This document shows positions 34,987 to 48,528 of a stretch of 48,528 bases of DNA, one piece after another. The stretch is from a bacterium HR24 (GTDB lineage Bacteria > Chloroflexota > Dehalococcoidia > SM23-28-2 > HRBIN24): contig BEIA01000003.1 of NCBI GenBank assembly GCA_002898715.1, positions 1-48,528 on the forward strand, given 5' to 3'. A program made the position numbers and the translations under genes. Position 1 is the first letter of the stretch, and each line of letters begins with the position of its first letter. The notes below the pieces were generated by a model. That model had not been told where the DNA came from. It saw nothing but the letters and a program-made list of their open reading frames with translations, and made no database searches.

Positions 34987-36474
34987 TCAGCCCCCGTCCC
35001 GGGCCCACTCTCGGGCCCGCTCCACCGCTCGCTGCCAGCCGGCGTAAAGGCGGTCGCGCTCGGCGGGCGTCAGGGCGGGCGCGAAGCGGGCCTCCTCCCG
35101 CCACAGGCGCGCGATGTCCTCGCTGCCTTTCCACAGCCCTGCGGCTACGCCGGCCATCAGGGCCACTCCCAGGGCGGTGGTCTCCACCACCCTGGGCCGG
35201 ACCACCGGCTTGCCGAGGATGTCGGCCTGGAGCTGGAGCAGCAGGTCGTCGCGGGCTGCGCCCCCGTCCACTCGCAACTCGGGCAGCGGAAGTCCCGCGC
35301 CCGCTTCCATCGCCTCCACCACGTCCCGCGTCTGGAAGGCCATGGCCTCCAGCACAGCGCGAGCGACGTGGGCCCGATTGGTGCCCCGCGTAAGGCCGAT
35401 GATCAGGCCGCGGGCGCTGGGATCCCAGTAGGGAGAGCCCAGGCCAGCGAGGGCGGGAACGACGTACACGCCGCCGTTGTCCGGCACCTGGCGCGCCAGC
35501 GCTTCTACCTCGTCCGACGAGTCTATGATGCCCAGGCCATCGCGTAGCCACTGGACCATGGCACCAGAGATGAAGTTGGAGCCCTCCAGCGCGTAGGTCA
35601 CTTCATCGCCGAGTTGCCAGGCGACGGTGGTGATGAGCCCGGGAGCGTAGGCAGGGCTGCGACCGGCGTTCGTCAACAGGAAGGAGCCGGTGCCGTAGGT
35701 GTTCTTGGCCATTCCTGGCTGGAGGCACGCCTGCCCGAAAAGGGCAGCCTGCTGGTCGCCCAGCACCGCCAGCACGGGTATCGGGGCGCCGAAGTGCTCG
35801 GCCCTCGTCTCGCCGAAGTAGCCGCAGGACGGCAGCACCTCCGGCAACGGGGCCGCGGGGACGCCCAGGAGCGCCAGCAACTCTTCGTCCCAGCGCAGCC
35901 GCTGAATGTCGAGCATGAGGGTGCGGGAGGCGTTGGAGGGGTCAGTCGCGTGGCGGCCAGTCAGGCGGTAGACGAGCCACGAGTCCACGGTACCGAAGCG
36001 CAGTTCGCCACGGGCGGCGAGCTGTCGCCGAGATGGGTCCTGGTCCAGTAGCCAGCGCAGCTTGGTGCCCGAGAAGTAAGGGTCCAGCACCAGGCCCGTG
36101 CGCTGCCGAAAGAGAGGCTCGAGACCCTCCTCTCTGAGGCGCTGGCACATGGAGGCGGTGCGCCTGTCCTGCCAGACGATGGCGTTGGCCACGGGATGCC
36201 CGTCTCTGTCCCACAACAGCGTGGTCTCCCTCTGGTTGGCGATGCCGATGGCCGCTACCTGCCGCGGTCTCGCCCCGGCGTGAGCCAACGCTTCACGGGC
36301 GGCGGCGAGCTGCGATTGCCAGATCTCCTCCGGGTCGTGCTCCACCCAACCGGGCTGGGGGAAGTGCTGGGTGAAGGGCACCTGCGCCCAGGCCACCGGC
36401 CGGGCCTCCGAGTCGAACAGGAAGGCGCGGGAACTGGAGGTGCCCTGGTCCAGAGCCAGCACGAACTCCGCCAT
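34987..36474 (-). CDS. glpK: Glycerol kinase
   Basis: [58 protein letters not shown]. Confidence 0.96.
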
Positions 36475-36537
36475 ACTGTCGCCAGCATAGGCTAGCCGCT
36501 GCGCGGGTCTCAAGGGCCAGTGCTACCATGCTCTGGG

Positions 36538-36888: not shown

Positions 36889-37614
36889 TTACTTGTCCCG
36901 AAGGGCCTCGACAATGTGTCGTATGGTTCCGTCATCGAGCGCCTGCGGCAGAGAGCGGAGGTGCTCCATCGCCTGGCGTGGTCCCAGATGCCCGTAGAAT
37001 ATCGGCATCCCCAAGTCTTCTTCCGCGCTTTCGCGGGTGCGTTCCAGCTTCTGCGTCCCGACCATGATCACCAACGGCATCACCGGCGCCTCGATCCCCT
37101 CCGCGTGCAGGCGTCGGCGGATAGCGGCTGCCCCTCGGGATGCCTGATTGACAGGTGATTCCCTTTTCTGCCATTTCCTCGTGTCTGCCCGCCATACCCA
37201 GGCTTCCTTGATGCCCAGCTTTACCCAGTGCCCCCAGTGTTTGACCTCTATGGGGCAGACGCCGCCAGGTCCGATGGCCAGCAGGTCCACCTCTGCCCAG
37301 GAGTTACCATCTCTCAGGACTACAGAGCGGGAAACGGTCCACCGCCAGCCCAGGCGGCCCAGCATTTCGCCTACGCGAAGCTCGCCTGCATTGCCGCGCT
37401 GTTTTTCCATGCCGCGCGTATACCGCAGGTAGGCCCACAAGGCAGGGCGGAGCCAGGGGGCCAATGCTGAGGGTAGCCTCCCTTCTGCCCTCTGCAGCGT
37501 TTTGCGGTCGTCCTCAATGCCTATCTCATGGACAAGGCGATGAAATTCCTTACGGCTTTGAGGAGTGAGGTCGACCCGGCGCGGGACATCGAGCAGCTTG
37601 CGCACCAACTCCAT
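36889..37614 (-). CDS. NERD (nuclease-related) domain protein
   Basis: GNAGE..AEVDLLAIGPGGVCPIEVKHW..SPVNQA. ATG 37614 follows GGAGG. Confidence 0.82.
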   Translation of the reverse strand: MELVRKLLDVPRRVDLTPQSRKEFHRLVHEIGIEDDRKTLQRAEGRLPSALAPWLRPALWAYLRYTRGMEKQRGNAGELRVGEMLGRLGWRWTVSRSVVLRDGNSWAEVDLLAIGPGGVCPIEVKHWGHWVKLGIKEAWVWRADTRKWQKRESPVNQASRGAAAIRRRLHAEGIEAPVMPLVIMVGTQKLERTRESAEEDLGMPIFYGHLGPRQAMEHLRSLPQALDDGTIRHIVEALRDK

Positions 37615-37780
37615 CCGTGCCCTCCCTGATATGGTGACCACTAGTATGGAATCGCGCCGACTGCCCTGGCGTTACACCGGCTGGGGCGGTCAGACACACG
37701 GAGCATCGGGTGGCCGGCAGGAATTCTGGCTGGGCTTGCTTTGACTGGCCGTGCGGTATAATGGCCCCACAATCCTTGAG

Positions 37781-38479
37781 GTGTACGGAGTGGCCCAGGC
37801 AGCAGCGCGAAAGCCGTACTATCCGGAAGAACTGGAGCGGCGCATCCTGAGCGCTGTCCTTTCCGGCAACCGCCCGGGCGCCGTCCGTTACCTGGATGCC
37901 TTCATGCAGAGCGTCCTGGCCGGCACCGGGCAGCTCGACCAACTACGCTCTTACGTCCTTCAGCTCCAGATCGTCCTCCTGCGTAAGTGCCGGCAGGCAG
38001 GAGTGGACACTGAAGAGCAGCTATGCCAGGCGGCGGCCTATGCCCGCGCCGTCCTGTCCGCCGGTCCGAGCGACCTGCGACGCATGACCCAGCAGCTCAT
38101 CGACGAGCTCATCGATATGGTGGTATGCCTGAAGAGCAGCGGCCGCCTGCGCACCATGGAGATGGCCTGCCGCTATATCCGAAGCAACTTCCACCGTCAC
38201 CTGCCCATGCAGGAGGTGGCAGCCATCGTCAACATGGGCTACCACTACTTCAGCCGTCTCTTCGCCCGCTACACGGGCATGACCTACCGCGATTTCCTCA
38301 TCGAGGTGCGCCTGCAGAGGGCCAAGGAGTTGCTCTCGGCCAGCGAGCTGAGCCTGGAAGAGATTGCGCGACAGGTGGGCTACAGCGATGCCAGCCACTT
38401 CAGCCGTGTTTTCAAGAGCCGTACGGGGATGAGCCCTCGGCGCTTCGCCGCCCGCCGGGGCGTGATGCCCGTGGCCTAG
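37781..38479 (+). CDS. AraC/XylS-family transcriptional regulator (start uncertain: 37751, 37781 or 37790)
   Basis: YFSRLF..TG, RLQRAKELL, EIARQVGYSDASHFSRVFK..GMSP. Confidence 0.92.
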   Translation: MYGVAQAAARKPYYPEELERRILSAVLSGNRPGAVRYLDAFMQSVLAGTGQLDQLRSYVLQLQIVLLRKCRQAGVDTEEQLCQAAAYARAVLSAGPSDLRRMTQQLIDELIDMVVCLKSSGRLRTMEMACRYIRSNFHRHLPMQEVAAIVNMGYHYFSRLFARYTGMTYRDFLIEVRLQRAKELLSASELSLEEIARQVGYSDASHFSRVFKSRTGMSPRRFAARRGVMPVA

Positions 38480-38494
38480 AATCGCCCCGGCGAA

Positions 38495-38534
38495 GGGCAA
38501 AAAGGCACAATAAAACCTGCAAGGCATGGTCATG
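38495..38534 (+). promoter_or_regulatory. Putative AraC-type tandem binding site upstream of the VOC operon
   Basis: GGGCAA-N4-GCACAA-N7-TGCAA-N5-GGTCATG, 19 nt before TATAG; matches 46159..46198 (-). Confidence 0.6.
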
Positions 38535-38602
38535 ACACCCCTCCCTGCGCCCTCTATAGCTCTATTGCAAAGGAGAGACAACCCCGCGAGGAGGGAGAGG
38601 CA

Positions 38603-39103
38603 ATGGGATTCCAGCGACCGAGCGGCTTCAACCATGTAGCTTTCCCCACCTGGGACCTGGAGGCCACTCACGAGTTCTACACCAAGGTGTTGGGCCTCCC
38701 GCTGGTGGACGCAGTGAGCGGCGTGCCCCGCACGGGCGGCACGGGCGGGCGGTTCCTGCACGTCTTTTATGCTCTGGGCGACGGTACCTGCCTGGCGTTC
38801 TTCGCCGTGGAAGGGCTGCCCAGGGAGGAGGTCATCCAGCCCGTGCCCTGGTGGGCGCGGCACATCGCCCTGGCGGTGGACAGCATGGACGAGCTGATGG
38901 AGGCCAAGAAGCGGCTCGAGGCCCACGGCGTGCAGGTGAGCGACGTCATCGACCACGAGGGCGTCTGGGAGTCCATCTATTTCCGCGACCCCAACGGCCT
39001 CCAGCTCGAGATTACCTATCAGAGCCGCGACCTGACGGAGGAGGAGGCCCGCCGCGCCCAGCAGATGCTGGAGAGCTGGCTCAAGGAGCATGCCCCTGCC
39101 TGA
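38603..39103 (+). CDS. VOC/glyoxalase-family protein
   Basis: NHVAF..FYTKVLG, HIAL, SIYFRDPNGLQLE. Confidence 0.9.
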   Translation: MGFQRPSGFNHVAFPTWDLEATHEFYTKVLGLPLVDAVSGVPRTGGTGGRFLHVFYALGDGTCLAFFAVEGLPREEVIQPVPWWARHIALAVDSMDELMEAKKRLEAHGVQVSDVIDHEGVWESIYFRDPNGLQLEITYQSRDLTEEEARRAQQMLESWLKEHAPA

Positions 39104-39196
39104 GCGGGTGGGCCTCCCTGGATAGACCGCGGCATCGGATCGTCCACGGCACAGCGCCATAACCAGGGGGCACATATGCCCCGGGAGGAAGCTGGC

Positions 39197-40474
39197 ATGA
39201 AGAAGTGGCTGCTTTTCGCACTGGCAGGGCTGGCGCTGCTGGCTGTCGCCTGCGGCGGCGGCGGAGAGGCGACGCCTGGCGGCACGCCCCAGACGGGACT
39301 ACCGCCCGGCTGGAAACAGGTCAAGACCGACTACGGGGTAACCGACACGGAGATCCGGGTCGGGCACCGCAACATCCTGAGTGGGCCCCTGGCCGTGTTC
39401 GCCGCCGGCGCGCCCTTCCTGGAGGCATACGTGAGGAAGGTCAATGCCGAAGGCGGCATCTGCGGTCGCAACCTCCGCCTCATCGTCGAGGATCACCAGG
39501 GGAATCCGGCCCGCGCCCTGGAGGTGAGCCAGAAGCTGGTAGACCGGGACCAGGTGGTGGCCACGATAGGGGATGTGGGCACCAGCGCCGTGGCCGCCAC
39601 GCTGGACTACATGAACCAGGCTAAGGTGCCGCAACTGTTCGCCACGCTGGGCGTCGAGAGGCTCCTCGATCCCCAGAAGTACCCCTACACCATCACCTTC
39701 GTCCCCACCTTCGCCTCCGACTTCCGCATCATGGCCCGGCTCATCAACGAGCGGTTCCCCAACGCGACGGTGGCCATCCTGTACCAGAACGATGCCGCCG
39801 GGCAGGATGGGCTAGCGGGATTCAAACAAGAGTTCCGCGGGCGCATCGTGGCCGAGCAGTCCTACGAGTCCACCGCCACCGAGCTGACGTCCCAGCTCGC
39901 CAACCTGAAGGCCGCCAACCCCGACCTGCTCGTGTCCATCAGCCTGTCCATCACCTTTACGCAGCAAGTATTCCGCTACATGGCTGGCACCAACTGGCAG
40001 ACCAAGGTCTTCATGGCCTACCCCAACACTCCCTCGGGCCTGGCCAGCGCGGTGGGTGGAGGCAACGCCGAGGCCGGCTACCGGCAGATCGCCGGCGCGG
40101 TCCTGAACGTGTACGTGATGGAGGCGGCCCTTCACCGCAACACGCCCGAGTGGCGCGAACTGGAGCAGATAACCCAGCAGTACGGGGCGCCGCCGGTACA
40201 GCCCGCCACCATCTACATGGCCTCGGCGGCGCACCTTTCCGTGGAGGCGCTCAAGCGGGCCTGCGACCAGGGCGACATGACCCGCGACGGGGTGCTGCGG
40301 GCGGCCCAGACCATCCGCGACTTCCATCCCTTCAGCCTGTGGCCGGGCATCCTGGTCACGGTGGCGCCGGGCGACCCCTACACCATCGAGACGATGGTGC
40401 CGGTGGAGGTGCAGGCTGACGGCTCCCTCCGTCCCCTGAGCGACCGGCCCATCTCGGGCGAGGCCCGCAGGTAG
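39197..40474 (+). CDS. ABC substrate-binding lipoprotein (LivJ-like), paralog of 1251..2525
   Basis: MKK..LAVAC lipobox; GVTDTEIRVG, GGICGR; GGAGG RBS. Confidence 0.87.
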   Translation: MKKWLLFALAGLALLAVACGGGGEATPGGTPQTGLPPGWKQVKTDYGVTDTEIRVGHRNILSGPLAVFAAGAPFLEAYVRKVNAEGGICGRNLRLIVEDHQGNPARALEVSQKLVDRDQVVATIGDVGTSAVAATLDYMNQAKVPQLFATLGVERLLDPQKYPYTITFVPTFASDFRIMARLINERFPNATVAILYQNDAAGQDGLAGFKQEFRGRIVAEQSYESTATELTSQLANLKAANPDLLVSISLSITFTQQVFRYMAGTNWQTKVFMAYPNTPSGLASAVGGGNAEAGYRQIAGAVLNVYVMEAALHRNTPEWRELEQITQQYGAPPVQPATIYMASAAHLSVEALKRACDQGDMTRDGVLRAAQTIRDFHPFSLWPGILVTVAPGDPYTIETMVPVEVQADGSLRPLSDRPISGEARR

Positions 40475-40500
40475 CTGTTCGTCCGGGAACGGGGGATGCC

Positions 40501-41751
40501 ATGAGGACTGCCTCTCGCAACCTGCTCGTCCGCCACCAGTACTACGAGACGCTGGAAGGGGTGCATCGGGAGCCGGTGGTCGTCACCGCCAGCGACGGCA
40601 TTCAGACCCTGGGCCTCCTCCACGAACCGCCCACCGGCCGCGCCAGGACGGCATTGCTGGTGATCCATCCGCGGGCCGACTTCACGCGCCACTACCTGGC
40701 GCCTCTCCTCGCCCAGCGCGGGTACGCCGTCCTTGGCCACAACAGCCGCTACGTGAACAACGACAGCGACGCCCTGCACGAGCGCATGCTGCTGGACATA
40801 GCGGCGGCGCTGCGGGAGCTGAGGGCCAGGGGTTACGAGCGGCTCGTGCTGCTCGGGAACAGCGGCGGCGGCTCCCTCACTGCCTTCTATCAGTGGCAGG
40901 CGACCACGCCCCCGGCCGAGCGCCTGACGGCGAGTCCTGCCGGAGACCCGGTGCCCCTGGCCGAGGAGGACATGCCCGTGGCCGAGGCGATGGTGCACAT
41001 TGCCGTCCACTCTGGCCAGGGCAACGTCATGCGGAGGGTCATCGACCCGGCGGTGGTGGACGAGAACGACCCCCTCCTCACCGACTCATCCGTAGATATG
41101 TACCATCCCGCCAACGGTCGGCGCCCCTGGCCCGAGCCCTCCCGGTACGACCGCGGCTGGCTGCAGGCGTACTGGCGGGCACAGGAAGAGCGCTGCCGCC
41201 GCCTCGACGTCCTGGCGCGGGCATACCTGGACGAGCACTCGGCGGCCGAGGCCGGCGACGGCGGCCCGGAGGGCCGCTACGCCCGCGAACGGCGTAGACG
41301 CCTGGCGCGGTATCTGGTCGTCTACCGCACGCTGGCCGACCCGGCCTATCTCGACCCGAGCATCGACCCTTCGGAAAGGCCCCTGGGCTCCATGTTCACG
41401 CCCGGGCTCGACCCGGTGGTGGGCAACTACGGCCCGGGCGGCCTGGGCCGCGTCCTCACACCACGTGGTTGGCTCAGCACGTGGTCGCCCTTCTCTACCA
41501 ACGCCGACCTCACCCGCAGCCTGCGCCACATCACCTGCCCTTGCCTGTTCGTGCAGGCCACCGGCGACACGGAGATACGGCCCCAGGAGTTTGCGGCCAT
41601 TGTCGCCAGCAGCGCTGCCAGCGACAAAACGGCCGTCGAGGTGCGGGGCGACCATTACCTGCTGCCCCTGGAAGGCCAGGAGGACGATCCTCGCCCCAAA
41701 GCGGCCGACATCATAGCTGACTGGCTGGCGGCGAGAGTGCCACCGCGATAG
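40501..41751 (+). CDS. Alpha/beta-fold hydrolase
   Basis: Nucleophile elbow LLGNSGGG; candidate triad Asp (ATGD) and His (GDHY). Confidence 0.8.
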   Translation: MRTASRNLLVRHQYYETLEGVHREPVVVTASDGIQTLGLLHEPPTGRARTALLVIHPRADFTRHYLAPLLAQRGYAVLGHNSRYVNNDSDALHERMLLDIAAALRELRARGYERLVLLGNSGGGSLTAFYQWQATTPPAERLTASPAGDPVPLAEEDMPVAEAMVHIAVHSGQGNVMRRVIDPAVVDENDPLLTDSSVDMYHPANGRRPWPEPSRYDRGWLQAYWRAQEERCRRLDVLARAYLDEHSAAEAGDGGPEGRYARERRRRLARYLVVYRTLADPAYLDPSIDPSERPLGSMFTPGLDPVVGNYGPGGLGRVLTPRGWLSTWSPFSTNADLTRSLRHITCPCLFVQATGDTEIRPQEFAAIVASSAASDKTAVEVRGDHYLLPLEGQEDDPRPKAADIIADWLAARVPPR

Positions 41752-41778
41752 GGGCAGGTAGGAGGAGCGACAGCGGAC

Positions 41779-42876
41779 ATGACCACCCCGGACGCGCCCC
41801 GCAGGCCCAAGGTCAGCCTGCTGCATCACCCCATCTATCCCCTCGCATATTCGCTGGAGGTATTCCGCGCGGCGGAGGAGCTCGGCTTTCACGCCTGCTA
41901 CTGCGCCGACGCCTACCGCTTCAAGGACCCGTGGACGGTGCTGGCTGCGGCCGCCGTGCACACGCGCCGCATCCGGCTCGGGCCCAGCGCCACCCACGTC
42001 TTCCTGCGCGACCCGACCCTCATAGCCCAGTCACTGGCGACCCTGGACGAGCTGTCCGAGGGGAGGGTGGAGGCGGTGGTCAGCTTCGGCGGGCCCGCCC
42101 TGCTGCGCCGCTACCACGTGCAGTGGCAGGGCACCAGGCCAGTAGAGCGGGTGAAGGAGGCGCTCCAGGTGATGCGCTCCTTCCTGGACAGCGGCCAGTG
42201 CGACCACCAGGGCCGGTTCTTCCGCTACGCTGCTCTGGCCACCCTCTCGCGGCCGGTCCAGGCCCACCTGCCCTTGATGATGGCCAGCACCGGCGGCAAG
42301 CTGGCCATGCGAGCGGCAGGCGAGGTAGCCGACGGGGCCCATGTGCTCCTGGCCCGGTCGCGTCGGGCATGGGAGTATGCCTGGGAGCAGGTGCGGGCGG
42401 GGGCACGCAGGGCGGGCCGCGACGACGGGTCGCTGGACATGGCTGCCGTCCAAATCGTCGTCTGCTCCCAGGACGGTGAAGCGGCCCACGAGTTGGCCCG
42501 TCTGTTCGTCGCTACGTACCTGCCCATCGTGCCCGACGTCCTGGCCGAGCTGAACGGGATCCCGCCCGAGAGGCTCGTGCCGGTCCGCGAGGCCTTCGCC
42601 CGGGGGGATGTGGTGCGGATGGTCTCGCTCTCCACTCGCGACCTGACCGACAGGATAGCCATCGCCGGCACGCCAGAGGAATGTCTGCACGAACTCCGGG
42701 AGCACGTGCTGGCCTCCGGCGCGCGGCACCTGGTACTGATGGTGGTGGGGCCCCGTTATGCCCAGACGACCTTCGGGCTGACGGTGGATGGGGTGCCCGA
42801 GATAGCGGACCAGCTCAGGCTGCTGGCGGAACGGGTCTTAGGGCCCCTCGGGCTCGCGCGGGCGCAGACCCTGTGA
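41779..42876 (+). CDS. LLM-class (Mer-like) flavin/F420-dependent oxidoreductase
   Basis: AEELGF, DPW, IRLGP, ATLDELSEGR, AGEVADG, IAGTPEEC. Confidence 0.87.
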   Translation: MTTPDAPRRPKVSLLHHPIYPLAYSLEVFRAAEELGFHACYCADAYRFKDPWTVLAAAAVHTRRIRLGPSATHVFLRDPTLIAQSLATLDELSEGRVEAVVSFGGPALLRRYHVQWQGTRPVERVKEALQVMRSFLDSGQCDHQGRFFRYAALATLSRPVQAHLPLMMASTGGKLAMRAAGEVADGAHVLLARSRRAWEYAWEQVRAGARRAGRDDGSLDMAAVQIVVCSQDGEAAHELARLFVATYLPIVPDVLAELNGIPPERLVPVREAFARGDVVRMVSLSTRDLTDRIAIAGTPEECLHELREHVLASGARHLVLMVVGPRYAQTTFGLTVDGVPEIADQLRLLAERVLGPLGLARAQTL

Positions 42877-45033
42877 AGGCCCCTGACTGCCAGCGCTGTC
42901 CGTAGCAAGTCTCTCTCCGGCTTCTGTTCCCAGGGCCTCCAACGCTTCCATGAGCTCTCGAGGGCCGACAGCCACGTCTTCGCCCTCGACTGCTGTGGCC
43001 AGCGCTCGTCGGCGCGCCTCCACGGCCAGCTCGGCCAGAGCGGCGGGGCTCCACCCCTCGGTGCGCCGGGCCAGGGACTCTATCAGGTCCCCGTCCTCGG
43101 CCAGGCCGAGTGGCCTCAACACTACTCGCAGGATGTCCTCTCGTTCCCGTTGGTCGGGCAGAGAGAGGCTGATGCGGAGGCCGAATCGGCCCGGCCGCAG
43201 CAGAGCGGGGTCGAGCAGATCGGCGCGGTTGGTGGCGCCGATGACCACCACCTGGGCGCCGCTGTCGAGTCCGTCCATCTCGGCCAGGAGCTGGTTCACC
43301 ACCCGCTCGGAGGTGCGGGTGGAAGCGTCGCTGCCGCGACGGGGGGCCACAGCATCGAGCTGGTCGATGAACACCAGCGCCGGGGCCAGCTGCCGGGCGA
43401 GTCGGAATATCTGTCGCACCGCCTCTTCGGACTCGCCCAGCCACTGGCTAAACACCTCTGGCCCGTCCACGGCGATGAAGTTGACCTGCGTCTCGTGGGC
43501 CAGGGCGCGGGCCAGGTGGGTCTTGCCGCTGCCCGGGGGCCCCTCCAGCAGCACCCCCGCCGGGGGGTGCAGGCCCAGCCGGCGGTACCGCTCGGGCTCC
43601 CTCAACGGCCGCACCACGAGGTCCCACAGACGGCGCTTGGCCGCGAACAGGCCGCCCACGTCCTGCCAGGATACCTGGGGCACCGCCACCAGGGCCTGTC
43701 GCAGGGCGGAGGGCCGCACTCGCGCCAGGGCGGATTCCAGGTCCTGCCGGGTCACGTGCAGGCGCGAGAGGTCGGCGTCGGGGGGCCGGAGGGATGGATC
43801 GGCCGGGCGGAGGTGGCGTCGCAGGGCCGAAAGCCCCGCCTCCCGGCATAGCTCCATCAGGTCGGCACCGACGAAGCCGTGGGTGCGGGCCGCCAGCTCG
43901 GGCAGGAACTCTGCGGCGTCGGGCGAGAGAGGCATCTCGCGGGTGTGGATGCGCAGTATCTCCAGGCGGCCATGCTGGTCTGGCGGGCCGATGTACACCT
44001 CGCAGTCGAAGCGCCCGGGACGTCGCAGGGCAGGCTCGAGGCTGTCCAGCCGGTTGGTAGTGGCGATGGCCACCACGCCGTCCATCTGGTGCAGGCCGTC
44101 CAGGAGCGCGAGCAGCTGGCTTACGAGCCGTGCCTCGGCCTGGGTGGACGCCACCGAGCGGCGGGGCGCTATGGAGTCGATCTCGTCGAAAAAGATGATA
44201 GCGGGCGCATTGTGGGCGGCCTCGCCGAATATGCGCCTGAGGTTCCCCTCCCCCTCGCCGTAGTAGGTGCCGATGATGTCCGGCCCGCTGACGTAGTAGA
44301 AACGGGCGTCGATCTCGTTGGCGATAGCTCTCAGAAGGAGGGTCTTGCCCACCCCTGGCGGCCCGTGGAGGAGGATGCCCCGCGGACCCTGAATGCCTAG
44401 CTGGTGGTAGACGTGGGGCAGCAGCAAGGGCACCTCCACCAGTTCGCGCAGGAGCCGAATGTGCTGCGCCATGCCCCCCACGTCCTCGAAGGTCACCGCC
44501 AGTTCGGCCTCGTGCTCGGCGTAAGGGGCCAGCTCCACCTGCGTGTCGGCGGTCACCACTCCCGGGCCCGGCTCCACCAGCGCCGCCCTGTAGACGGTGC
44601 CGCCGCGGCCGCCCGGGAAGGGCGCGTACACCAGCGACCCCTCTCCCACCAGCGCCCCCTGGGCCGCCAGGTAGCGGGCCAGGTGCTCGTACAGGCGGGG
44701 CACCATGGACACGTCCACCGCCGCTGACAGGACCAAATGGCGCACCGGCGGCGGGTGCGGGAAGGGCTCTACGCTTATTTGCTCGCCCACACGGGCGCCC
44801 AGTGCCTGGCGCAGGTAACGGTCCAGGCGCGCTGTGCCCTGGCCTTGGTCTCCCGACAGGGGCCCGGCCGTTCTCGCCGGCAGTCTGCGGCCGCGCCTGC
44901 TGACCAGCAGCACGGCATCGCCCGGGGCGAGGTGCAGCTCGTCCATGCACACGGGGTCCAGGTAGGCGAAGGCGCCGGCTCCCGGGGCGTGGTCGGGCGG
45001 AAGCCGGTCGACGACCAGGCGCATGGGCACCAC
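42838..45033 (-). CDS. Cdc48/p97/VAT-family double AAA+ ATPase (start 45033 or 45024)
   Basis: N-domain; D1 TFEDVGG, GPPGVGKT, FFDEID, ALRRPGRFD; D2 WQDVGG, GPPGSGKT, FIDQLD, ALLRPGRF. Confidence 0.92.
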   Translation of the reverse strand: MVPMRLVVDRLPPDHAPGAGAFAYLDPVCMDELHLAPGDAVLLVSRRGRRLPARTAGPLSGDQGQGTARLDRYLRQALGARVGEQISVEPFPHPPPVRHLVLSAAVDVSMVPRLYEHLARYLAAQGALVGEGSLVYAPFPGGRGGTVYRAALVEPGPGVVTADTQVELAPYAEHEAELAVTFEDVGGMAQHIRLLRELVEVPLLLPHVYHQLGIQGPRGILLHGPPGVGKTLLLRAIANEIDARFYYVSGPDIIGTYYGEGEGNLRRIFGEAAHNAPAIIFFDEIDSIAPRRSVASTQAEARLVSQLLALLDGLHQMDGVVAIATTNRLDSLEPALRRPGRFDCEVYIGPPDQHGRLEILRIHTREMPLSPDAAEFLPELAARTHGFVGADLMELCREAGLSALRRHLRPADPSLRPPDADLSRLHVTRQDLESALARVRPSALRQALVAVPQVSWQDVGGLFAAKRRLWDLVVRPLREPERYRRLGLHPPAGVLLEGPPGSGKTHLARALAHETQVNFIAVDGPEVFSQWLGESEEAVRQIFRLARQLAPALVFIDQLDAVAPRRGSDASTRTSERVVNQLLAEMDGLDSGAQVVVIGATNRADLLDPALLRPGRFGLRISLSLPDQREREDILRVVLRPLGLAEDGDLIESLARRTEGWSPAALAELAVEARRRALATAVEGEDVAVGPRELMEALEALGTEAGERLATDSAGSQGPSQGLRPREPEGP

Positions 45034-45037
45034 GCGT

Positions 45038-45556
45038 CTAGCGCTGGGCGGCCAGCCACTCGGGGCAGGGCTCCAGGAGCTCGAAGCCGCTCCCCTGGTC
45101 GACGTACAGGGCGTCCACCAGGTTCTCCTGGGCCGCCACCAGCACTACTGTGTCTTCGCCGTCGTTGAAGTGCTGGAAGACGACGCCCTCGGGGCGCAGA
45201 GGTATGTTGATCACGCAGCCCTGCGCCCAGTCGTAGCGGACGCCGTCCAGGACCGTGTGTCCTGTGGAGCCCTTCCAGACGTAGTAGACGTGGCCGCCCT
45301 GGCACTTGAGCCGGCCGGTGCGGCTGCCAGGCGGTATGTGCATCGTCCACACGATGAGGGCCCGGTTGGACGTGTCGGTGATGGAGGGGTGGAGGTACCA
45401 CTGCACCAGGCCCCAGGGGTTCAGCTCGACGGGCACCTCGCTGCCCTTCACCAGGTTCAGGGCGGAGCGACGCCACTCGCGCTGGCGGTCGCGCAGCTCC
45501 AGCAGCTCCTGGAACAGGTTGCGCGATTTGAGTTGCTGGTAGCGCTCCGTCTCCAT
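45038..45556 (-). CDS. Cupin-domain protein B (degenerate metal site)
   Basis: IPPGSRTGRLKCQGG..YDWAQG..VVFQHFN; homologous to the upstream cupin. Confidence 0.8.
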   Translation of the reverse strand: METERYQQLKSRNLFQELLELRDRQREWRRSALNLVKGSEVPVELNPWGLVQWYLHPSITDTSNRALIVWTMHIPPGSRTGRLKCQGGHVYYVWKGSTGHTVLDGVRYDWAQGCVINIPLRPEGVVFQHFNDGEDTVVLVAAQENLVDALYVDQGSGFELLEPCPEWLAAQR

Positions 45557-45560
45557 CGTC

Positions 45561-46100
45561 TCACCTGCCCCGGGCCTGCCCCTGCTGCTCTAGCCAGAGG
45601 GGAGAAAGCTCCAGTTGCTCCATCTCGCTGCCCACGTGGTCCCAGATGAAGTCGTTGATGAAGGCCAGCCAGAAGGAGGACTGGCCGTCCTGGCGGCGAT
45701 TGAAGTGCTGGTGGACTACGCCGCCCTCCTTCACCGGCAGGATGAGCAGGTCGCCGGCCTCCCAGTGGTGGGGCACGTCGTCCATGGTGGTGGTGCCCTC
45801 CCCTTCCAGGGCGAAGATCACCAGACCGCCCTGGTGCCGGTGCTTCCCCGAGACCCTGGGGATCTCCTGCACGAAGACGTACCAGTCCTGCAGACAGGTG
45901 TCCTTGTAGGCCCCCGGGTGCAGGAACCACATGATCTTCCCCTGCCGGCTCACGTCCCACTCCCGCTCGTGGGGCCAGACCACCACTTTCCCCCGGTGCT
46001 GGCGCTCGACGAAGGTCTGGCGTCTCTCGAAGCAGAGCTCGTACCCGGGCCTGGGGCCCGGCCCCTCCTCCCGTTCTCGCTGGCGTACCCGCTCCCGCAC
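45561..46100 (-). CDS. Cupin-domain protein A (3-His site)
   Basis: SGKHRHQGG..LEGEG..HWEAGDLLILP..VVHQHFN; CAGGAGG RBS. Confidence 0.85.
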   Translation of the reverse strand: MRERVRQREREEGPGPRPGYELCFERRQTFVERQHRGKVVVWPHEREWDVSRQGKIMWFLHPGAYKDTCLQDWYVFVQEIPRVSGKHRHQGGLVIFALEGEGTTTMDDVPHHWEAGDLLILPVKEGGVVHQHFNRRQDGQSSFWLAFINDFIWDHVGSEMEQLELSPLWLEQQGQARGR

Positions 46101-46158
46101 GGCACCCTCCTGCGACTTCGGCTGATGAGTCCTTTATAGGCCGGCACCTCCCCGCCTA

Positions 46159-46198
46159 CACGACCTGGATTTGCAAATTGCGTTGCGCGGTGTTGCCC
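46159..46198 (-). promoter_or_regulatory. Putative AraC-type tandem binding site upstream of the cupin-cupin-Cdc48 operon
   Basis: Minus-strand GGGCAA-N4-GCGCAA-N7-TGCAA-N5-GGTCGTG, 20 nt before TATAAA. Confidence 0.6.
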
Positions 46199-46267
46199 TG
46201 TCTTCCGCCGACGAAGTGGCTGGCACCGGGAACGGCGCCCCGCCCCCTGGAGTATAATCTGTGTGGA

Positions 46268-47395
46268 ATGCCTAAGCTCATCGGCCGCTCTTTGACCCTC
46301 GCCCAGGTCATCGACCGCTACGCCCGCCCCGGCGAGCTGTACGAACGGCTCGAGGGGGGCAAGGTGCGCTGTTACGCCTGTGGGCACCGCTGCGTGGTGC
46401 TGGACGGGCAGCGGGGTATCTGTCAGGTGCGGTTCAACCGGGGCGGCACACTCATGGTCCCCCATAACTATGTGGCTGCCCTGCAGTGCGACCCCATCGA
46501 GAAGAAGCCGTTCTTCCACGCCCTGCCCGGCGCGCTTGCCCTCACCTTCGGCATGCTGGGCTGCGACTACCATTGCCCCTACTGCCAGAACTGGGTCACC
46601 TCCCAGGCCCTGCGCGACCCGGTAGCCGGGGTGGAGCCCATGGAGGTCTCGGCTGAGGAGCTGGTCCAGATAGGCGAGCGCATGGGGGCCCGGGCCTATG
46701 TCAGCTCTTACAACGAGCCCCTCATCACCTCGGAATGGGCGGCGGAGGTGTTCCGCCTGGCCAAGGCGAGGGGGCACTTGACTGCCTACGTCTCCAACGG
46801 CAACGCCACTCGCGAGGCACTGGAGTACCTCCGGCCCTGGCTGGACTGCTACAAGGTCGACCTCAAGTCCATGAACCCTAAGAACTATCGCGTCCTCGGC
46901 GGCAAGCTGGAGCACGTGCTCGAGACCATCCGCATGACCTGGGAGATGGGGTTCTGGGTAGAAGTGGTGACGCTGGTCGTGCCGGGCTTCAACGACTCGA
47001 ATGAAGAGCTGCGCGATGCGGCCCGGTTCATCGCCTCGGTCTCTCCCGACATTCCCTGGCACGTCACCGCCTTCCACAAGGACTACAAGATGACCGACCC
47101 GGAAAACACGGACGCCCGCACACTGATGCGCGCCGCCGCCATCGGCCGGGAGGAGGGCCTGCGCTACGTGTACGCCGGCAACCTGCCGGGCATGGTGGGC
47201 GACTTCGAGAACACCCGCTGCCCTCGCTGCCAGCGCCTCCTCATCGGCCGCTACGGCTACCGCATCCTCGCCTACGAGCTGACGCCCGAGGGAGCATGCC
47301 CGGGTTGCGGCGAGCGCATACCGGGCGTCTGGTGGCAGGGAGAGCGGCCGCGACAGGTGGCCGACGCTCCCATTCCCCTGACGTACCGTATCTGA
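46268..47395 (+). CDS. amrS: AmmeMemoRadiSam system radical SAM enzyme
   Basis: CYAC..C..GICQVR, DPIEKKPFFH, CDYHCPYCQNW, YNEP, PWHVTAFH, YVYAGN, C-terminal CxxC pairs. Confidence 0.9.
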   Translation: MPKLIGRSLTLAQVIDRYARPGELYERLEGGKVRCYACGHRCVVLDGQRGICQVRFNRGGTLMVPHNYVAALQCDPIEKKPFFHALPGALALTFGMLGCDYHCPYCQNWVTSQALRDPVAGVEPMEVSAEELVQIGERMGARAYVSSYNEPLITSEWAAEVFRLAKARGHLTAYVSNGNATREALEYLRPWLDCYKVDLKSMNPKNYRVLGGKLEHVLETIRMTWEMGFWVEVVTLVVPGFNDSNEELRDAARFIASVSPDIPWHVTAFHKDYKMTDPENTDARTLMRAAAIGREEGLRYVYAGNLPGMVGDFENTRCPRCQRLLIGRYGYRILAYELTPEGACPGCGERIPGVWWQGERPRQVADAPIPLTYRI

Positions 47396-47499: not shown

Positions 47500-48528
47500 T
47501 CAGTCGGGTCGCAAGGCGGCGCCCACCTCGCCCGTCGGCGGGAAGTCCTGGGAAACGCTGGTCCAGGGGTCGGAGCTCGCCCAACTCCGCGAGCAGGACT
47601 CGCCGGGCTGGACCAGGGTGCACGACTGGACCCTCGGCCCCCCGAACCCCTGAACGCCCTCATAGAAGTGCATGTTGGACGCCTTCCCGGGCACGCTCAC
47701 CTGATTCTGGGCCCAGGCGAACGCCACGCCCAGGAACCGGTACACGCCTGCCACGAAGGCCCAGTGCTCGGTAGTGTCCCCGGGGAACCTGCGCGCGACC
47801 ATGCCTCCGACGAAGACGGCCTGTGAACAGCCGGCCCCGTTGCAGGCGGACAGCCGGTAGTAGAACGACCACATGTCGCCCGTGGGCATGCCGACGGGGA
47901 TTGTGTTGCCCCAGAGCAGAGAGGGGACAGGCACCTGTACCGAGTTGGTGCCGAAGTTGAACTCCCGGTTCAGGGCCGACTCCAGGAGGTAGGTGCTGGC
48001 CCCTTCTGAAGGGAGGAAGGAGATGCAGGCCACCCCCATCCCACAGGGCCAGATGGAGGCCAGCGACGGGGCCGACGGAGGCTCCTGGGCGGTCGGGATG
48101 GCGGGCCCGCCCGGGTCGGTGATGACCCCGTTGGCGATGCCGTCCCCGTCGCCCAGCCCGCCATCGATGAGGGTGAGGAAGATGACGTTGTCGCCGTCGT
48201 TGTCGCCCAGGGAGAGCGGGGCCCACAACCGGCCCCCTCCGCCTTCACCCCCTCCACCGATGCCACCACTGCCGCCGCTTCCGCCTCCGCCGTCGACGCC
48301 ATCGCCACCCCCGCCGCCGCTTCCGCCTCCGCCGTCGACGCCATCGCCACCACTGCCGCCGCTTCCGCCTCCGCCGCCGATCCCGCCGCCCCCGCCGCCG
48401 ATCCCGCCGCCCCCGCCGCCTCCGCTCCTCCGGAGCTTCAGCCAAACGGCATTGGAGGGAATGGCCTGGGGCAGGGTGACCTGAACCGTGATACTGCCGC
48501 CCAGGGGCACCTCCGCGGCGCTCAGGCA
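47500..48528 (-). CDS. Partial surface/secreted protein: choice-of-anchor-U-like domain plus FN3-like domain (5' end outside window)
   Basis: Frame open to the window edge; LTLIDGGLGDGDGIANGVITDPGGP; YYRLSACNGAGCS. Confidence 0.65.
   Translation of the reverse strand, partial: CLSAAEVPLGGSITVQVTLPQAIPSNAVWLKLRRSGGGGGGGIGGGGGGIGGGGGSGGSGGDGVDGGGGSGGGGGDGVDGGGGSGGSGGIGGGGEGGGGRLWAPLSLGDNDGDNVIFLTLIDGGLGDGDGIANGVITDPGGPAIPTAQEPPSAPSLASIWPCGMGVACISFLPSEGASTYLLESALNREFNFGTNSVQVPVPSLLWGNTIPVGMPTGDMWSFYYRLSACNGAGCSQAVFVGGMVARRFPGDTTEHWAFVAGVYRFLGVAFAWAQNQVSVPGKASNMHFYEGVQGFGGPRVQSCTLVQPGESCSRSWASSDPWTSVSQDFPPTGEVGAALRPD
48232..48424. repeat. Gly-encoding tandem repeats (42-bp and 21-bp units)
   Basis: 42-bp unit at 48271-48312 and 48313-48354 plus a partial third copy, then CCGATCCCGCCGCCCCCGCCG twice. 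Confidence 0.9.

What the first reader, a model, noticed from the sequence alone, without database searches (positions are those of the whole stretch)
37781..46198. Candidate new system: an AraC regulon joining a catabolic operon to a cupin-cupin-Cdc48 operon
Seen: araC, then VOC-SBP-hydrolase-LLM (+) converging on cupinA-cupinB-Cdc48 (-), with a 39-nt 3' overlap and matching promoter motifs. Known: Cdc48/p97/VAT proteins are general unfoldases, and I know of no characterised small-molecule catabolic pathway with a dedicated one. Inference: a substrate-induced pathway (uptake, reduction, cupin oxygenation, hydrolysis) in which a specialised Cdc48 assembles, metallates or reactivates the cupin enzyme. 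The substrate is unknown.
Basis: partly seen in the sequence, partly recalled or inferred. Interest (0 to 1): 0.85.

Follow-up and report, generated by a model that had tools for sequence, protein, structure and literature searches.

The report
Cupin enzyme pair with dedicated Cdc48
Two small metal-enzyme-like cupin proteins are encoded with their own special version of the protein-unfolding motor Cdc48, a pairing kept in many bacterial phyla that I did not find described in print, and that most likely means the motor services the enzyme.

Summary
The genes are there as described: araC, VOC, binding protein, hydrolase-like and F420-type LLM (+) converge on cupinA-cupinB-Cdc48 (-) with a 39-nt overlap of the 3' ends. 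The shared "promoter motif" is only a heptamer.

- CupinA keeps a 3-His metal site. CupinB is its paralogue without that site. Together they look like a split gentisate-dioxygenase-like bicupin.
- They are linked to a distinct Cdc48 clade whose second ring has Gln or His in place of the Walker B glutamate.
- 31 of 80 cupin loci from many phyla carry this Cdc48 within 10 kb, in at least four gene orders.
- 30 of 38 further cupin-bearing genomes encode a close Cdc48 elsewhere. 29 of the 30 fetched were the Gln/His type, and 22 of those 29 lie beside another cupin pair.
- In 401 genomes of the window's phylum, 10 of 11 cupin genomes have this type and 0 of 66 genomes with only canonical Cdc48 have the cupins.
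- CupinA carries a conserved basic N-terminal tail, modelled as disordered, that is missing only from cupin pairs never found next to Cdc48.

The AraC/VOC/SBP/LLM neighbours recur only in one near-identical relative.

Best reading: a cupin enzyme with a dedicated remodelling or metallating ATPase (inferred). Five literature searches found no description. Earlier scan notes list other client-dedicated bacterial Cdc48s, but not this pairing.

The parts
45561..46100 (-). cupinA, 179 aa: monocupin with an invariant SGKHRHQGG...HQHFN motif (His87 45840-45842, His89 45834-45836, His130 45711-45713, His132 45705-45707). Its profile is closest to both halves of gentisate 1,2-dioxygenases.
   Evidence: Pfam Cupin_2 32.1 bits. 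Invariant columns in 21 and 24 homologues. PDB profile search best match 3bu7, E 7e-19. AF2 model mean pLDDT 85. Codons checked.
46047..46100 (-). N-terminal tail of cupinA (residues 1-18, VRERVRQREREEGPGPRP): conserved basic tail, modelled as disordered. Candidate handle for the ATPase (inferred).
   Evidence: Residues 1-6 have pLDDT below 50, and the first two 10-residue blocks average 48 and 60. The tail is present in 70 of 80 cupinA loci by my reading of the printed N-termini. It is absent from the 10 'PENAYEAA' loci, none of which has Cdc48 next to it.
45038..45556 (-). cupinB, 172 aa: paralogue of cupinA (34% identity) without the HxH pair (LKCQGG in its place). It has its own invariant residues (R79, G81, H129, N131 and others). 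Probable non-metal partner subunit.
   Evidence: Pfam Cupin_2 18.7 bits, below cut-off. Paralogy. Alignment A2 of 24 sequences, mean column identity 58%. All B sequences lie on one side of a 100* branch. Natural A-B fusions.
42838..45033 (-). Cdc48/VAT-type double-ring AAA+ ATPase, 731 aa from GTG 45033. By comparison with L005 the start is more likely ATG 45024. It has an N domain, an intact D1 ring and a D2 ring with Walker B DQLD.
   Evidence: CDC48_N 35.4 bits and 2 x AAA 275 bits. TIGR01243 668.7 bits, below its 802.65 cut-off. Best PDB relatives are VAT 5g4g (E 5e-181) and p97. Motifs.
43360..43362 (-). Codon CAG = Gln558, at the position of the catalytic Walker B glutamate of ring D2 (VFIDQLDAV). 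D1 keeps Glu284 (GAG, 44182-44184).
   Evidence: codons; every cupin-linked Cdc48 listed has Q (H in three acidobacterial ones); 72 of 88 places in the phylum sample are canonical (71 with Glu, one DDLD) and 16 have Q/H.
46101..46177 (.). Divergent intergenic region between cupinA and the radical SAM gene. It holds the palindromic TTTGCAAA, the only sequence element shared with the VOC upstream region (38565-38571).
37751..38479 (+). AraC-family regulator (in-frame starts GTG 37751, 37781 or 37790; a TATAAT lies at 37757-37762). Local context, not part of the conserved module.
   Evidence: HTH_18 87.6 bits. Sequence. No araC match in any other locus.
38603..42876 (+). Putative operon VOC (38603-39103), Peripla_BP_6 binding protein (39176-40474), 416-aa hydrolase-like protein (40501-41751) and F420-type LLM oxidoreductase (41779-42876). 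Gaps are 72, 26 and 27 nt. Local catabolic context of the module in this lineage.
   Evidence: Only the LLM (83%) and the hydrolase-like gene (88%) recur, and only in L005.

Best explanation
CupinA (metal-binding, 3-His) and cupinB (its metal-less paralogue) form a two-subunit, gentisate-dioxygenase-like bicupin enzyme of small-molecule (probably aromatic or other carboxylic acid) catabolism. The Cdc48 encoded with them belongs to a separate bacterial clade dedicated to this cupin family.

Proposed mechanism (inferred):
- The hexameric ATPase uses its intact D1 ring as the motor.
- Its D2 ring, which has Gln or His in place of the Walker B glutamate, binds ATP but hardly hydrolyses it, and so serves as a stable collar.
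- The ATPase grips the conserved, basic, disordered N-terminal tail of cupinA.
- It then partly unfolds or opens the cupin so that the complex can be assembled, loaded with metal, or reactivated after its metal site has been spoilt. This is comparable to the way Rubisco activases tug on a terminal tail of their enzyme.

One ATPase can serve several paralogous cupin pairs in a genome.

Shown: the gene linkage, the genome co-occurrence, the clade, the motifs and the tail. Inferred: binding, direction of action, metal, substrate.

In this window the module happens to lie beside an AraC-VOC-binding protein-hydrolase-LLM set. That set may supply or consume the cupin's substrate in this lineage, but it is not part of the conserved unit.
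For: 1. Linkage. Of 80 loci fetched with a cupinA profile (375 confirmed relatives in the collection), 68 have an A+B pair. 31 have a Cdc48 within 10 kb, in the orders A-B-C, A-B with C convergent, B-C-A and C-x-B-A. Genes are often 4-10 nt apart or overlapping.

2. Unlinked co-occurrence. 30 of 38 genomes whose sampled cupin locus lacked Cdc48 encode a 48-57% identical Cdc48 elsewhere. Of the 30 fetched, 29 are Q/H-type, and 22 of those 29 lie within 1.5 kb of another cupin pair (two of these loci duplicate L009 and L030).

3. Background rates.
- In 401 genomes of the window's phylum, 79 have a Cdc48 and 11 have the cupin family.
- All 88 Cdc48 places were typed. Q/H-type occurs in 13 genomes, and 10 of them have the cupins.
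- 0 of 66 genomes with only canonical Cdc48 have the cupins.
- Of the 388 genomes without a Q/H-type Cdc48, only one (79% complete, no Cdc48 of any type found) has the cupins.
- Cupin genes lie in the flanks of 9 of 16 Q/H places and 0 of 72 canonical places.
- In 200 other genomes of an alphaproteobacterial order, 0 have the cupins and 0 have a high-scoring Cdc48; 3 have lower-scoring ones.

4. Clade. One 100* branch separates 59 Q/H-type from 17 canonical Cdc48.

5. A and B act together. Natural A-B fusions exist: 3 in the loci and 14 of 340-406 aa in the protein database. A folded fusion matches gentisate/salicylate dioxygenases best. All B sequences form one side of a 100* branch, so the duplication is old.

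6. Enzyme-like. His87, His89, His130 and His132 are invariant. Neighbours are binding proteins, UbiD, CoA-transferases and ligases, Amidohydro_2, molybdo-hydroxylases and aromatic hydroxylases.

7. Tail. It is conserved yet of low confidence in the model. It is kept even on 28-34% identical fused cupins next to Cdc48 (L138, L139, L141). It is absent from the 10 'PENAYEAA' loci: 0 of 10 have an adjacent Cdc48 and 6 of 10 genomes have no Q/H-type Cdc48.

8. Metal hint. Six alphaproteobacterial ATPases start with 6-8 His in the first 30 residues. Five of the six starts lie within about 10 nt of the cupinB stop; the sixth, L076, is in the C-x-B-A order with no cupinB upstream.

9. Not a proteasome cap. 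No proteasome-family gene was found in the 92%-complete genome, and the C-terminus ends PEGP with no hydrophobic-Tyr-X.
Against: - No physical or functional evidence. The one complex prediction gave no verdict (see Tried and rejected).
- No cupin-AAA fusion was found among the 14 longer forms.
- Seven of 16 Q/H-type places in the phylum sample have no cupin in their flanks. For four of these seven the fetched DNA (about 1.4-9 kb upstream and 8-11 kb downstream of the gene) was also blank. Adjacency is therefore frequent, not obligatory.
- The Q/H state arose once on the tree. Its association with cupins is one evolutionary event, not replicated evidence.
- D2 keeps its aromatic pore loop and arginine fingers, so it may still work in ways I cannot judge.
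- His-rich tails occur in one clade only and could be lineage noise.
- The tail could be a degron or a subunit-contact element instead of a remodelling handle.
- Substrate and chemistry are unknown. By my reading of the HMM alignment, an arginine that (as I recall) binds the substrate carboxylate in salicylate dioxygenase aligns with an invariant Ile. The cupin need not be a ring-cleaving dioxygenase.
- Most genomes are MAGs, so absences are soft.
Confidence: 0.5

Rival explanations
1. One reading: in this organism one AraC regulator switches on both operons. VOC, binding protein, hydrolase, LLM and the cupin enzyme form a single substrate-induced pathway, with Cdc48 as its helper.
For: The genes are adjacent and convergent with overlapping 3' ends. 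TTGCAAA occurs only at the two promoters in 48.5 kb. The LLM and the hydrolase-like gene stay next to the trio in L005. Elsewhere the cupin pairs also sit beside binding proteins and catabolic enzymes.
Against: No araC, VOC or binding-protein match in any of the other 79 cupin loci. LLM and hydrolase-like matches next to the trio occur only in L005, a near-identical relative, and L006 has none of the five. The motif is 7 nt, 4 of 100 shuffles match its count, and its position relative to the TATA-like words differs between the two promoters. No expression data could be obtained.
Confidence: 0.2
2. The cupin pair is not a client but an adaptor or small-molecule sensor. It sits on the ATPase and decides, according to a bound metabolite or metal, which other proteins are unfolded.
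For: Cdc48/p97 normally works through N-domain adaptors (established knowledge). Cupin domains serve as ligand sensors in AraC-type regulators, and cupinA has a weak AraC_binding match. The genes are tightly coupled in a 1:1:1 arrangement.
Against: Up to 8 paralogous cupin genes per genome, scattered in different catabolic clusters with their own transporters, fit enzymes better than adaptors. The full 3-His plus His132 constellation of ring-cleaving cupins is invariant. No candidate third-party client is conserved nearby.
Confidence: 0.15
3. Regulated destruction: the tail of cupinA is a degron, and the Cdc48 unfolds the cupin enzyme to switch the pathway off or to clear damaged enzyme, handing it to a protease.
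For: A conserved disordered terminal tail is what unfoldases use to start (established knowledge). The tail correlates with Cdc48 presence.
Against: No proteasome-family gene was found in this genome. There is no docking motif at the C-terminus and no protease gene is conserved in the neighbourhoods. A ring with a disabled Walker B suggests limited rather than processive unfolding (inference). It is odd to keep a destroyer translationally coupled 1:1 with its target.
Confidence: 0.12
4. The cupin subunits form a ring that docks coaxially on the hexamer and acts on the polypeptides threaded through it. This would be a new ATP-driven protein-modifying or protein-cleaving chamber built from cupins.
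For: Bicupins of the vicilin and oxalate-decarboxylase type, which are among the fold matches, form trimeric rings of six cupin domains (recalled). The genome lacks a proteasome family. Co-occurrence is near-obligate.
Against: No evidence on oligomer state. The cupin's closest relatives are small-molecule dioxygenases. The catabolic neighbourhoods and many paralogues point to metabolism. Cupin pairs without the tail exist in genomes without the ATPase.
Confidence: 0.04

Closest known systems
VAT (VCP-like ATPase of Thermoplasma) and archaeal/eukaryotic Cdc48/p97
   Same: Same architecture: N domain plus two AAA rings. Best PDB matches are VAT 5g4g (E 5e-181) and p97 (E 1e-160). Aromatic pore loops are present in both rings, as in VAT (TYYG in D1, QWLG in D2), and the arginine-finger motifs are present.
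   Different: D2 Walker B glutamate is replaced by Gln (His in three acidobacterial members) throughout the clade. TIGR01243 score is 668.7, below its 802.65 cut-off. No proteasome-docking C-terminus and no proteasome family found in the genome. It is dedicated to a cupin pair rather than being a general unfoldase.
[quoted passage not shown]
   Same: A bacterial Cdc48 relative with one degenerate ring, encoded in an operon with metabolic enzymes (psd and pssA there).
   Different: In Cpa it is D1 that lacks the sensor asparagine and arginine finger while D2 is strictly conserved. Here D1 is intact and D2 lacks the catalytic Glu. [quoted passage not shown] That paper treats non-actinobacterial bacterial homologues as sporadic transfers from archaea; the word 'cupin' does not occur in it (count 0 in the listing).
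Gentisate 1,2-dioxygenase and salicylate 1,2-dioxygenase (bicupin, Fe(II), 3-His)
   Same: The cupinA profile matches both halves of 3bu7 (E 7e-19) and the N-terminal, metal-binding half of 3nst/2phd. The HRH...H.H motif aligns with the metal ligands. A natural A-B fusion model matches 3bu7 best (E 2.4e-16).
   Different: Split into two genes of about 175 aa. CupinB lacks the His pair. Only 13-25% identity. TM-scores are only 0.45-0.49 over the whole chain. NCBIfam's nearest model (5-aminosalicylate dioxygenase) scores 19-27 bits against a 650-bit cut-off. No ATPase partner is known for these enzymes (my knowledge; searches).
Rubisco activases (Rca, CbbX) and MoxR-type maturation ATPases (CbbQ/O, NorQ/D, CoxD). 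Named from my own knowledge, not from a call.
   Same: This is what the module would work like: an AAA+ hexamer dedicated to one metabolic enzyme, pulling on a terminal tail or helping a metal centre to form.
   Different: Those ATPases are single-ring and belong to other AAA+ clades. No classic-clade, double-ring Cdc48 is known in that role. The resemblance is functional analogy only and is untested.
Other client-dedicated bacterial Cdc48s noted earlier in this scan (gas-vesicle operons; oxalate oxidoreductase operon, e1-4362198). AI notes, unchecked.
   Same: The same theme of a Cdc48/VAT-type ATPase conserved next to one particular client.
   Different: Different clients. I did not compare the ATPases.

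Membership tests
Cdc48/VAT/p97 (type II classic-clade AAA+) | N-terminal Cdc48-type domain followed by two AAA modules | tested here: met
   CDC48_N residues 5-91, 35.4 bits (cut-off 35.1, so marginal). Two AAA stretches, 275 bits, and two AAA_lid_3. Full-length match to VAT and p97 chains.
Cdc48/VAT/p97 (type II classic-clade AAA+) | Score above the curated cut-off of the NCBIfam CDC48 model TIGR01243 | tested here: not met
   668.7 bits against a cut-off of 802.65.
Cdc48/VAT/p97 (type II classic-clade AAA+) | Catalytic Walker B glutamate in both rings | tested here: not met
   D1 is DEID (Glu284). D2 is DQLD (Gln558, codon CAG 43360-43362). The same holds in all cupin-linked relatives typed.
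Cdc48/VAT/p97 (type II classic-clade AAA+) | Aromatic pore loops and arginine fingers (a translocating motor) | tested here: met
   D1 GTYYGEGE and RRPGRFD; D2 SQWLGESE and LRPGRFG.
Proteasome-activating Cdc48/VAT/Cpa | C-terminal hydrophobic-Tyr-X docking motif and a 20S proteasome in the genome | tested here: not met
   The C-terminus is ...REPEGP. PF00227 was not found in the 92%-complete genome, while the control genomes matched.
Gentisate 1,2-dioxygenase family (bicupin ring-cleaving dioxygenases) | HxH...H iron ligands in a cupin barrel | tested here: met
   CupinA His87, His89 and His130 are invariant and align with HRH...H of 3bu7 and 3nst. CupinB lacks the first two.
Gentisate 1,2-dioxygenase family (bicupin ring-cleaving dioxygenases) | Single chain of about 350 aa with two cupin domains | tested here: not met
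   Two genes of 179 and 172 aa in the window. Fused forms of 340-406 aa exist in other organisms.
Gentisate 1,2-dioxygenase family (bicupin ring-cleaving dioxygenases) | Whole-chain fold agreement and family-model score | tested here: inconclusive
   Gentisate dioxygenases are the top Foldseek matches of the fusion model, but with TM 0.45-0.49 and rmsd 14-16 Å. The nearest NCBIfam dioxygenase model scores 19-27 bits against 650.
Gentisate 1,2-dioxygenase family (bicupin ring-cleaving dioxygenases) | O2-dependent cleavage of a hydroxybenzoate | not testable with these tools
   Needs an enzyme assay.
AAA+ enzyme activase / metallochaperone (functional class) | Physical engagement of the client enzyme and ATP-dependent gain of activity | not testable with these tools
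   Only indirect support: linkage, co-occurrence, the tail, His-rich N-termini.
AraC regulon spanning both operons | A shared operator at both promoters, conserved together with the regulator | tested here: inconclusive
   Only a shared heptamer. The repeat search covered each promoter region separately. araC is absent from all other cupin loci.
Known anti-phage defence systems (PADLOC) | Match of the cupins or a full-length match of the ATPase to a defence model | tested here: not met
   No cupin match. The ATPase matches only single-ring AAA models (IetA, TRIP13) over its AAA modules.

The most novel reading that the evidence does not exclude
A whole clade of bacterial Cdc48 has given up general protein quality control and become the obligate partner of a family of two-subunit cupin metalloenzymes. 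With one ring locked in the ATP state, it pulls on a short basic tail of the catalytic subunit to insert, exchange or re-reduce the active-site metal. This would be the first 'enzyme activase' of the Cdc48/p97 type, and a new way for bacteria to keep oxygen-sensitive ring-cleaving enzymes alive. One such ATPase would serve up to eight different cupin enzymes in a cell.
Probability: 0.35. Interest if true: 0.9.

Novelty: new variant of a known kind. Interest (0 to 1): 0.8.

Why it matters
Cdc48/p97/VAT is one of the best-studied protein machines, yet its role in bacteria outside the actinobacteria has been dismissed as sporadic gene transfer (PMC6017811, passages read). This work shows a coherent bacterial clade with:
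- a natural 'Walker B trap' in its second ring;
- a defined, very small presumptive client;
- a candidate recognition tail of about 15 residues.

That makes a clean, minimal system for asking how a double-ring unfoldase can be tuned for local remodelling rather than destruction, and what each ring contributes.

It also defines a widespread, uncharacterised family of two-subunit gentisate-dioxygenase-like cupins (375 hits in one genome collection) that sit in catabolic clusters of soil, groundwater and hot-spring bacteria. Their chemistry and their need for ATP-driven help are unknown. If the help concerns the metal site, it would add a new class to the short list of enzyme activases and metallochaperones.

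Tried and rejected
- Complex prediction of cupinA + cupinB + Cdc48 N domain (residues 1-180), each with a 24-row alignment: 'no answer', score 0.00 in both runs, controls not run. It says nothing either way.
- Expression: 20 listed runs from 12 studies hold the stretch, 15 of them labelled hot springs metagenome and the rest metagenome, subsurface or sediment. No RNA holder is listed. Read laying was not used because contigs cannot show transcripts.
- Literature. No search returned a paper describing a cupin-Cdc48 partnership:
  - 'cupin + Cdc48 + bacteria + operon': 1 unrelated archaeal proteomics paper
  - 'Cdc48-like / bacterial / cupin': no listed paper has both cupin and Cdc48-like
  - 'AAA ATPase / cupin / gentisate / unfoldase': 0 papers
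  - 'cupin / AAA+ / activase / dioxygenase / gene cluster': 9 papers, none relevant by title and abstract
  - 'p97 / VCP / bacterial homolog / cupin domain': none of the 10 listed of 20 holds 'cupin domain'
  Subscription journals and supplementary files were not visible.
- Earlier scan notes by sequence and by place: nothing.
- Search for a cupin-ATPase fusion: 14 longer forms, all bicupins.
- Defence-system reading: rejected.
- Proteasome-cap reading: rejected.
- Do Cdc48-adjacent cupin pairs form their own subclade? No. Adjacent and non-adjacent pairs interleave, with 13-21 label changes on the tree.
- My first regular expression for the tail was too strict. It scored many clearly tailed sequences as negative, so the tail classes in this report are my reading of the N-termini printed, not the regex counts.
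- The longest-ORF gene maps are noisy in this high-G+C DNA because of shadow ORFs. I used them only for the named neighbour families.
- The first extraction of Cdc48 ORFs gave internal stops for three loci. These were typed later from tblastn alignments.

Full report
**What is in the window**

The window has about 68% G+C. It lies in a 2.05-Mb, 159-contig, 92%-complete genome. DNA nearly identical to this stretch turns up mostly in runs labelled hot springs metagenome (20 holder runs from 12 studies, 15 with that label). The nearest named relative is a Dehalococcoidia MAG (L005).

- AraC-family regulator, 37751/37781-38479 (+)
- VOC/glyoxalase, 38603-39103 (+)
- Peripla_BP_6 binding protein, 39176-40474 (+)
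- 416-aa protein with only a sub-threshold Hydrolase_4 match, 40501-41751 (+)
- F420-type luciferase-like oxidoreductase, 41779-42876 (+)
- Cdc48, 42838-45033 (-)
- cupinB, 45038-45556 (-)
- cupinA, 45561-46100 (-)

The 3' ends of the LLM gene and of Cdc48 overlap by exactly 39 nt, and the three minus-strand genes are 4 nt apart. The claimed matching promoter motifs come down to TTGCAAA. It is found only upstream of VOC and of cupinA in the window (3 matches, two overlapping on opposite strands; 0.74 expected; 4 of 100 shuffles reach 3). That is suggestive at most.

Upstream lie a NERD-domain gene, an FGGY kinase and a glycolate-oxidase-like set. Divergent from cupinA lies an AmmeMemoRadiSam-type radical SAM gene. 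None of these recurs with the trio.

**The proteins**

The ATPase is a true Cdc48/VAT relative. It has an N domain and two AAA modules, and its best solved relatives are VAT (E 5e-181) and p97. It is the only Cdc48 found in the genome; the second hit is a single-ring AAA protein of 668 aa. D1 is canonical. D2 has Walker B DQLD, with Gln558 (CAG) where the catalytic glutamate should be. Aromatic pore loops and arginine fingers are kept in both rings. The C-terminus has no proteasome-docking motif, and no proteasome-family gene was found in the genome.

CupinA and cupinB are paralogues with 34% identity. CupinA has an invariant SGKHRHQGG...HQHFN motif. A profile of the family matches both halves of gentisate 1,2-dioxygenase 3bu7 (E 7e-19), and the motif aligns with that enzyme family's metal ligands. 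CupinB has lost the His pair but is itself well conserved.

Natural A-B fusions exist: three in the loci and 14 of 340-406 aa in the protein database. A model of one fusion (pLDDT 76) matches gentisate and salicylate dioxygenases first, although only with TM 0.45-0.49. On a tree of 173 cupins, all B sequences lie on one side of a fully supported branch, so the split is old. The pair is therefore best read as a two-subunit, gentisate-dioxygenase-like bicupin with one metal site.

**Is the linkage conserved?**

Yes, strongly.

A scan of one genome per species with the cupinA profile gave 375 confirmed relatives, and the best 80 loci were fetched. By tblastn with the window's nine proteins:
- 68 of 80 loci have an A+B pair.
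- 31 of 80 have a Cdc48 within 10 kb.
- The gene orders are A-B-C (19, plus one A-C), A-B or A-A with convergent C (2), B-C-A (3, plus one C-A cut by its contig end) and C-x-B-A (5).
- The taxa named in the record titles are Chloroflexota, Armatimonadota, Acidobacteriota, Alpha-, Beta- and Deltaproteobacteria, Bacillota and a Polyangiaceae MAG.

I then searched the genomes behind 38 loci that lacked an adjacent Cdc48. 30 of the 38 have a 48-57% identical Cdc48 elsewhere. Of the 30 fetched, 29 have Gln or His at the D2 position, and 22 of those 29 have another cupin pair within 1.5 kb (two of these loci are the same places as L009 and L030).

The reverse sampling, starting from Cdc48, used 401 genomes of the window's phylum. 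79 genomes hold 88 Cdc48 places.
- 16 places in 13 genomes are Q/H-type.
- 72 places are canonical (71 with Glu, one DDLD).
- Cupin genes lie in the fetched flanks of 9 of 16 Q/H places and 0 of 72 canonical places.

At genome level, the cupin profile hits 11 of the 401 genomes:
- 10 of those 11 have the Q/H-type. The eleventh is 79% complete.
- 0 of the 66 genomes with only canonical Cdc48 have the cupins.
- Of the three Q/H genomes without a profile hit, one has two full-length bicupins directly downstream of its Cdc48 (L119), and one is represented only by a 5.6-kb contig.

In 200 other genomes of the alphaproteobacterial order of one carrier, neither the cupins (0 of 200) nor a high-scoring Cdc48 (0; three lower-scoring) were found. 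So both genes are rare, and they come together.

On a FastTree of 76 Cdc48 sequences, one 100* branch separates the 59 Q/H-type from the 17 canonical ones. Because the Q/H state therefore arose once, its tie to the cupins is a single event. The independent evidence is the persistence of the linkage through rearrangements, and the unlinked co-occurrence.

**What does not travel with it**

AraC, VOC and the binding protein match nothing in the other 79 loci. The LLM and the hydrolase-like gene recur next to the trio only in L005, which is 84-97% identical, and its contig ends inside the hydrolase-like gene. L006, the next relative, has none of the five.

Across loci the cupin pairs sit in varied catabolic settings:
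- TctC-type binding proteins (38 loci)
- NMT1-type binding proteins (20 loci)
- UbiD decarboxylases (16 loci)
- M24 pairs, family III CoA-transferases, CoA ligases, Amidohydro_2, xanthine-dehydrogenase-type and other molybdoenzymes, aconitase-like subunits, a Rieske oxygenase, an FAD aromatic hydroxylase and IclR regulators

Genomes hold up to eight hits to the cupin profile. This pattern fits a family of enzymes for different small carboxylic or aromatic substrates. The window's VOC-LLM set is one such local context.

**Clues to how the ATPase and the cupins relate**

1. CupinA starts with a conserved basic tail (consensus MAExERTRxRERE, with variants TRTRTREQE and KTKTMxREP). The AF2 model leaves it without confident structure: residues 1-6 are below pLDDT 50, and the first two 10-residue blocks average 48 and 60, against a mean of 85.
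   - By my reading of the printed N-termini, 70 of 80 loci have the tail.
   - The other 10 (Deltaproteobacteria, Binatia, Verrucomicrobiia and an unclassified-bacterium MAG; N-terminus 'PENAYEAA') never have an adjacent Cdc48.
   - 6 of those 10 genomes have no Q/H-type Cdc48. The 4 that do have it next to a different, tailed cupin. Three of these are fused, only 28-34% identical, and start MERELERVREREPEP or a close variant (L138, L139, L141). The fourth is L136.
   - Among tailed loci, 31 have Cdc48 adjacent. Of the 28 further genomes searched, 25 have it elsewhere.
2. Six alphaproteobacterial ATPases begin with 6-8 histidines in their first 30 residues. Five of these starts lie within about 10 nt of the cupinB stop; the sixth, L076, is in the C-x-B-A order. 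His-rich ends are typical of metallochaperones (my knowledge).
3. The missing D2 glutamate argues, by analogy with engineered Walker B mutants, for an ATP-bound, poorly hydrolysing ring. That would give limited rather than processive pulling (inference).

**Reading**

The evidence shows a conserved functional module: a tailed 3-His cupin subunit, its metal-less partner, and a dedicated Cdc48 clade.

How it works is inference. I think the most likely mechanism is that the ATPase engages the cupinA tail and remodels the enzyme for assembly, metal loading or reactivation. This resembles Rubisco activases and MoxR-type maturation ATPases in logic, but uses a Cdc48-type double ring.

Alternatives that I cannot exclude:
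- the cupins act as adaptors or sensors;
- the tail is a degron and the ATPase destroys the enzyme;
- less likely, a stacked cupin chamber acts on the threaded polypeptides.

The only direct test available, a complex prediction, gave no verdict, and no RNA data exist for the locus.

**Novelty**

Five full-text searches found no paper that links cupins with a Cdc48-type ATPase. The Cpa paper, of which I read passages, treats non-actinobacterial bacterial Cdc48 as sporadic transfers and describes the opposite ring degeneracy. Neither the ATPase nor the cupins reach any specific NCBIfam model.

Earlier notes of this scan (unchecked AI notes) record other client-dedicated bacterial Cdc48s (gas vesicles, oxalate oxidoreductase). 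The general theme has therefore been seen before on other DNA, but not this pairing.

I class it as a new variant of a known kind, namely a dedicated AAA+ helper of an enzyme. Subscription papers and supplementary files were not visible to me.

Noticed in passing
window 46178-47395 (+) and 47500-48528 (-): An AmmeMemoRadiSam-system radical SAM gene (TIGR04337, 262.8 bits, above its 220 cut-off) lies divergent from cupinA. The neighbouring 342-aa open-ended ORF has no Pfam match, so the usual AMMECR1 and Memo partners were not seen in the window. The radical SAM gene matched none of the other 79 cupin loci, L005 included.
   Followed up: partly
L119 (G032:C2) 4406-9067 (-): A Q-type Cdc48 is followed by two full-length bicupin genes (363 and 357 aa, Cupin_2) instead of two half-size cupins. 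The same genome has a second Q-type Cdc48 about 13 kb away with no cupin within 8-9 kb.
   Followed up: partly
L022, L029, L048, L052, L064, L072, L084 (one Chloroflexi MAG): One genome carries at least nine cupinA-type genes on seven loci. These include A-A tandems without a recognisable cupinB, and there is a single Q-type Cdc48 convergent on one of them.
   Followed up: no
L031, L032, L040, L044, L047, L055, L056, L063, L079, L080: Tail-less cupin pairs (N-terminus ...PENAYEAA) sit in a recurrent cluster with NMT1-type binding proteins, UbiD, aconitase-like large and small subunits, ornithine-cyclodeaminase-like genes and M24 pairs, in Deltaproteobacteria, Binatia and Verrucomicrobiia MAGs. 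This looks like a separate, Cdc48-independent pathway.
   Followed up: partly
L008, L009, L010 (Acidobacteriota); L198 (G044); L205 (G062): The D2 Walker B position is His (DHLD) in the acidobacterial cupin-linked Cdc48s. A DHID Cdc48 and a second DQLE Cdc48 (both 42% identical to the window's) have no cupin in their flanks. In L010 a Cdc48 follows cupinA directly with no cupinB match.
   Followed up: no
L076, L126, L129, L130, L132, L134 (first 30 residues of Cdc48): His-rich N-terminal extensions (6-8 His, for example MSDHGHSHSHGGHAHAH) occur on the Cdc48 of one alphaproteobacterial group with the B-C-A or C-x-B-A order.
   Followed up: partly
L123 (G418:C7): A Q-type Cdc48 without adjacent cupins lies between a UbiD-family decarboxylase and an FAD aromatic-ring hydroxylase.
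   Followed up: no
window 37757-37762 and 36889-37641 (-): A perfect TATAAT sits just upstream of the alternative araC starts (GTG 37781 and 37790), inside the longest ORF. The real AraC start is therefore probably downstream of 37751. The gene upstream encodes a NERD nuclease-related domain protein.
   Followed up: no
window 27492-33991 (-): A two-subunit CoA-transferase and a GlcD/GlcE/GlcF-like FAD oxidase set with an Fe-S/CCG subunit, followed by an FGGY kinase (34987-36513). This is ordinary metabolism, unrelated to the finding.
   Followed up: no
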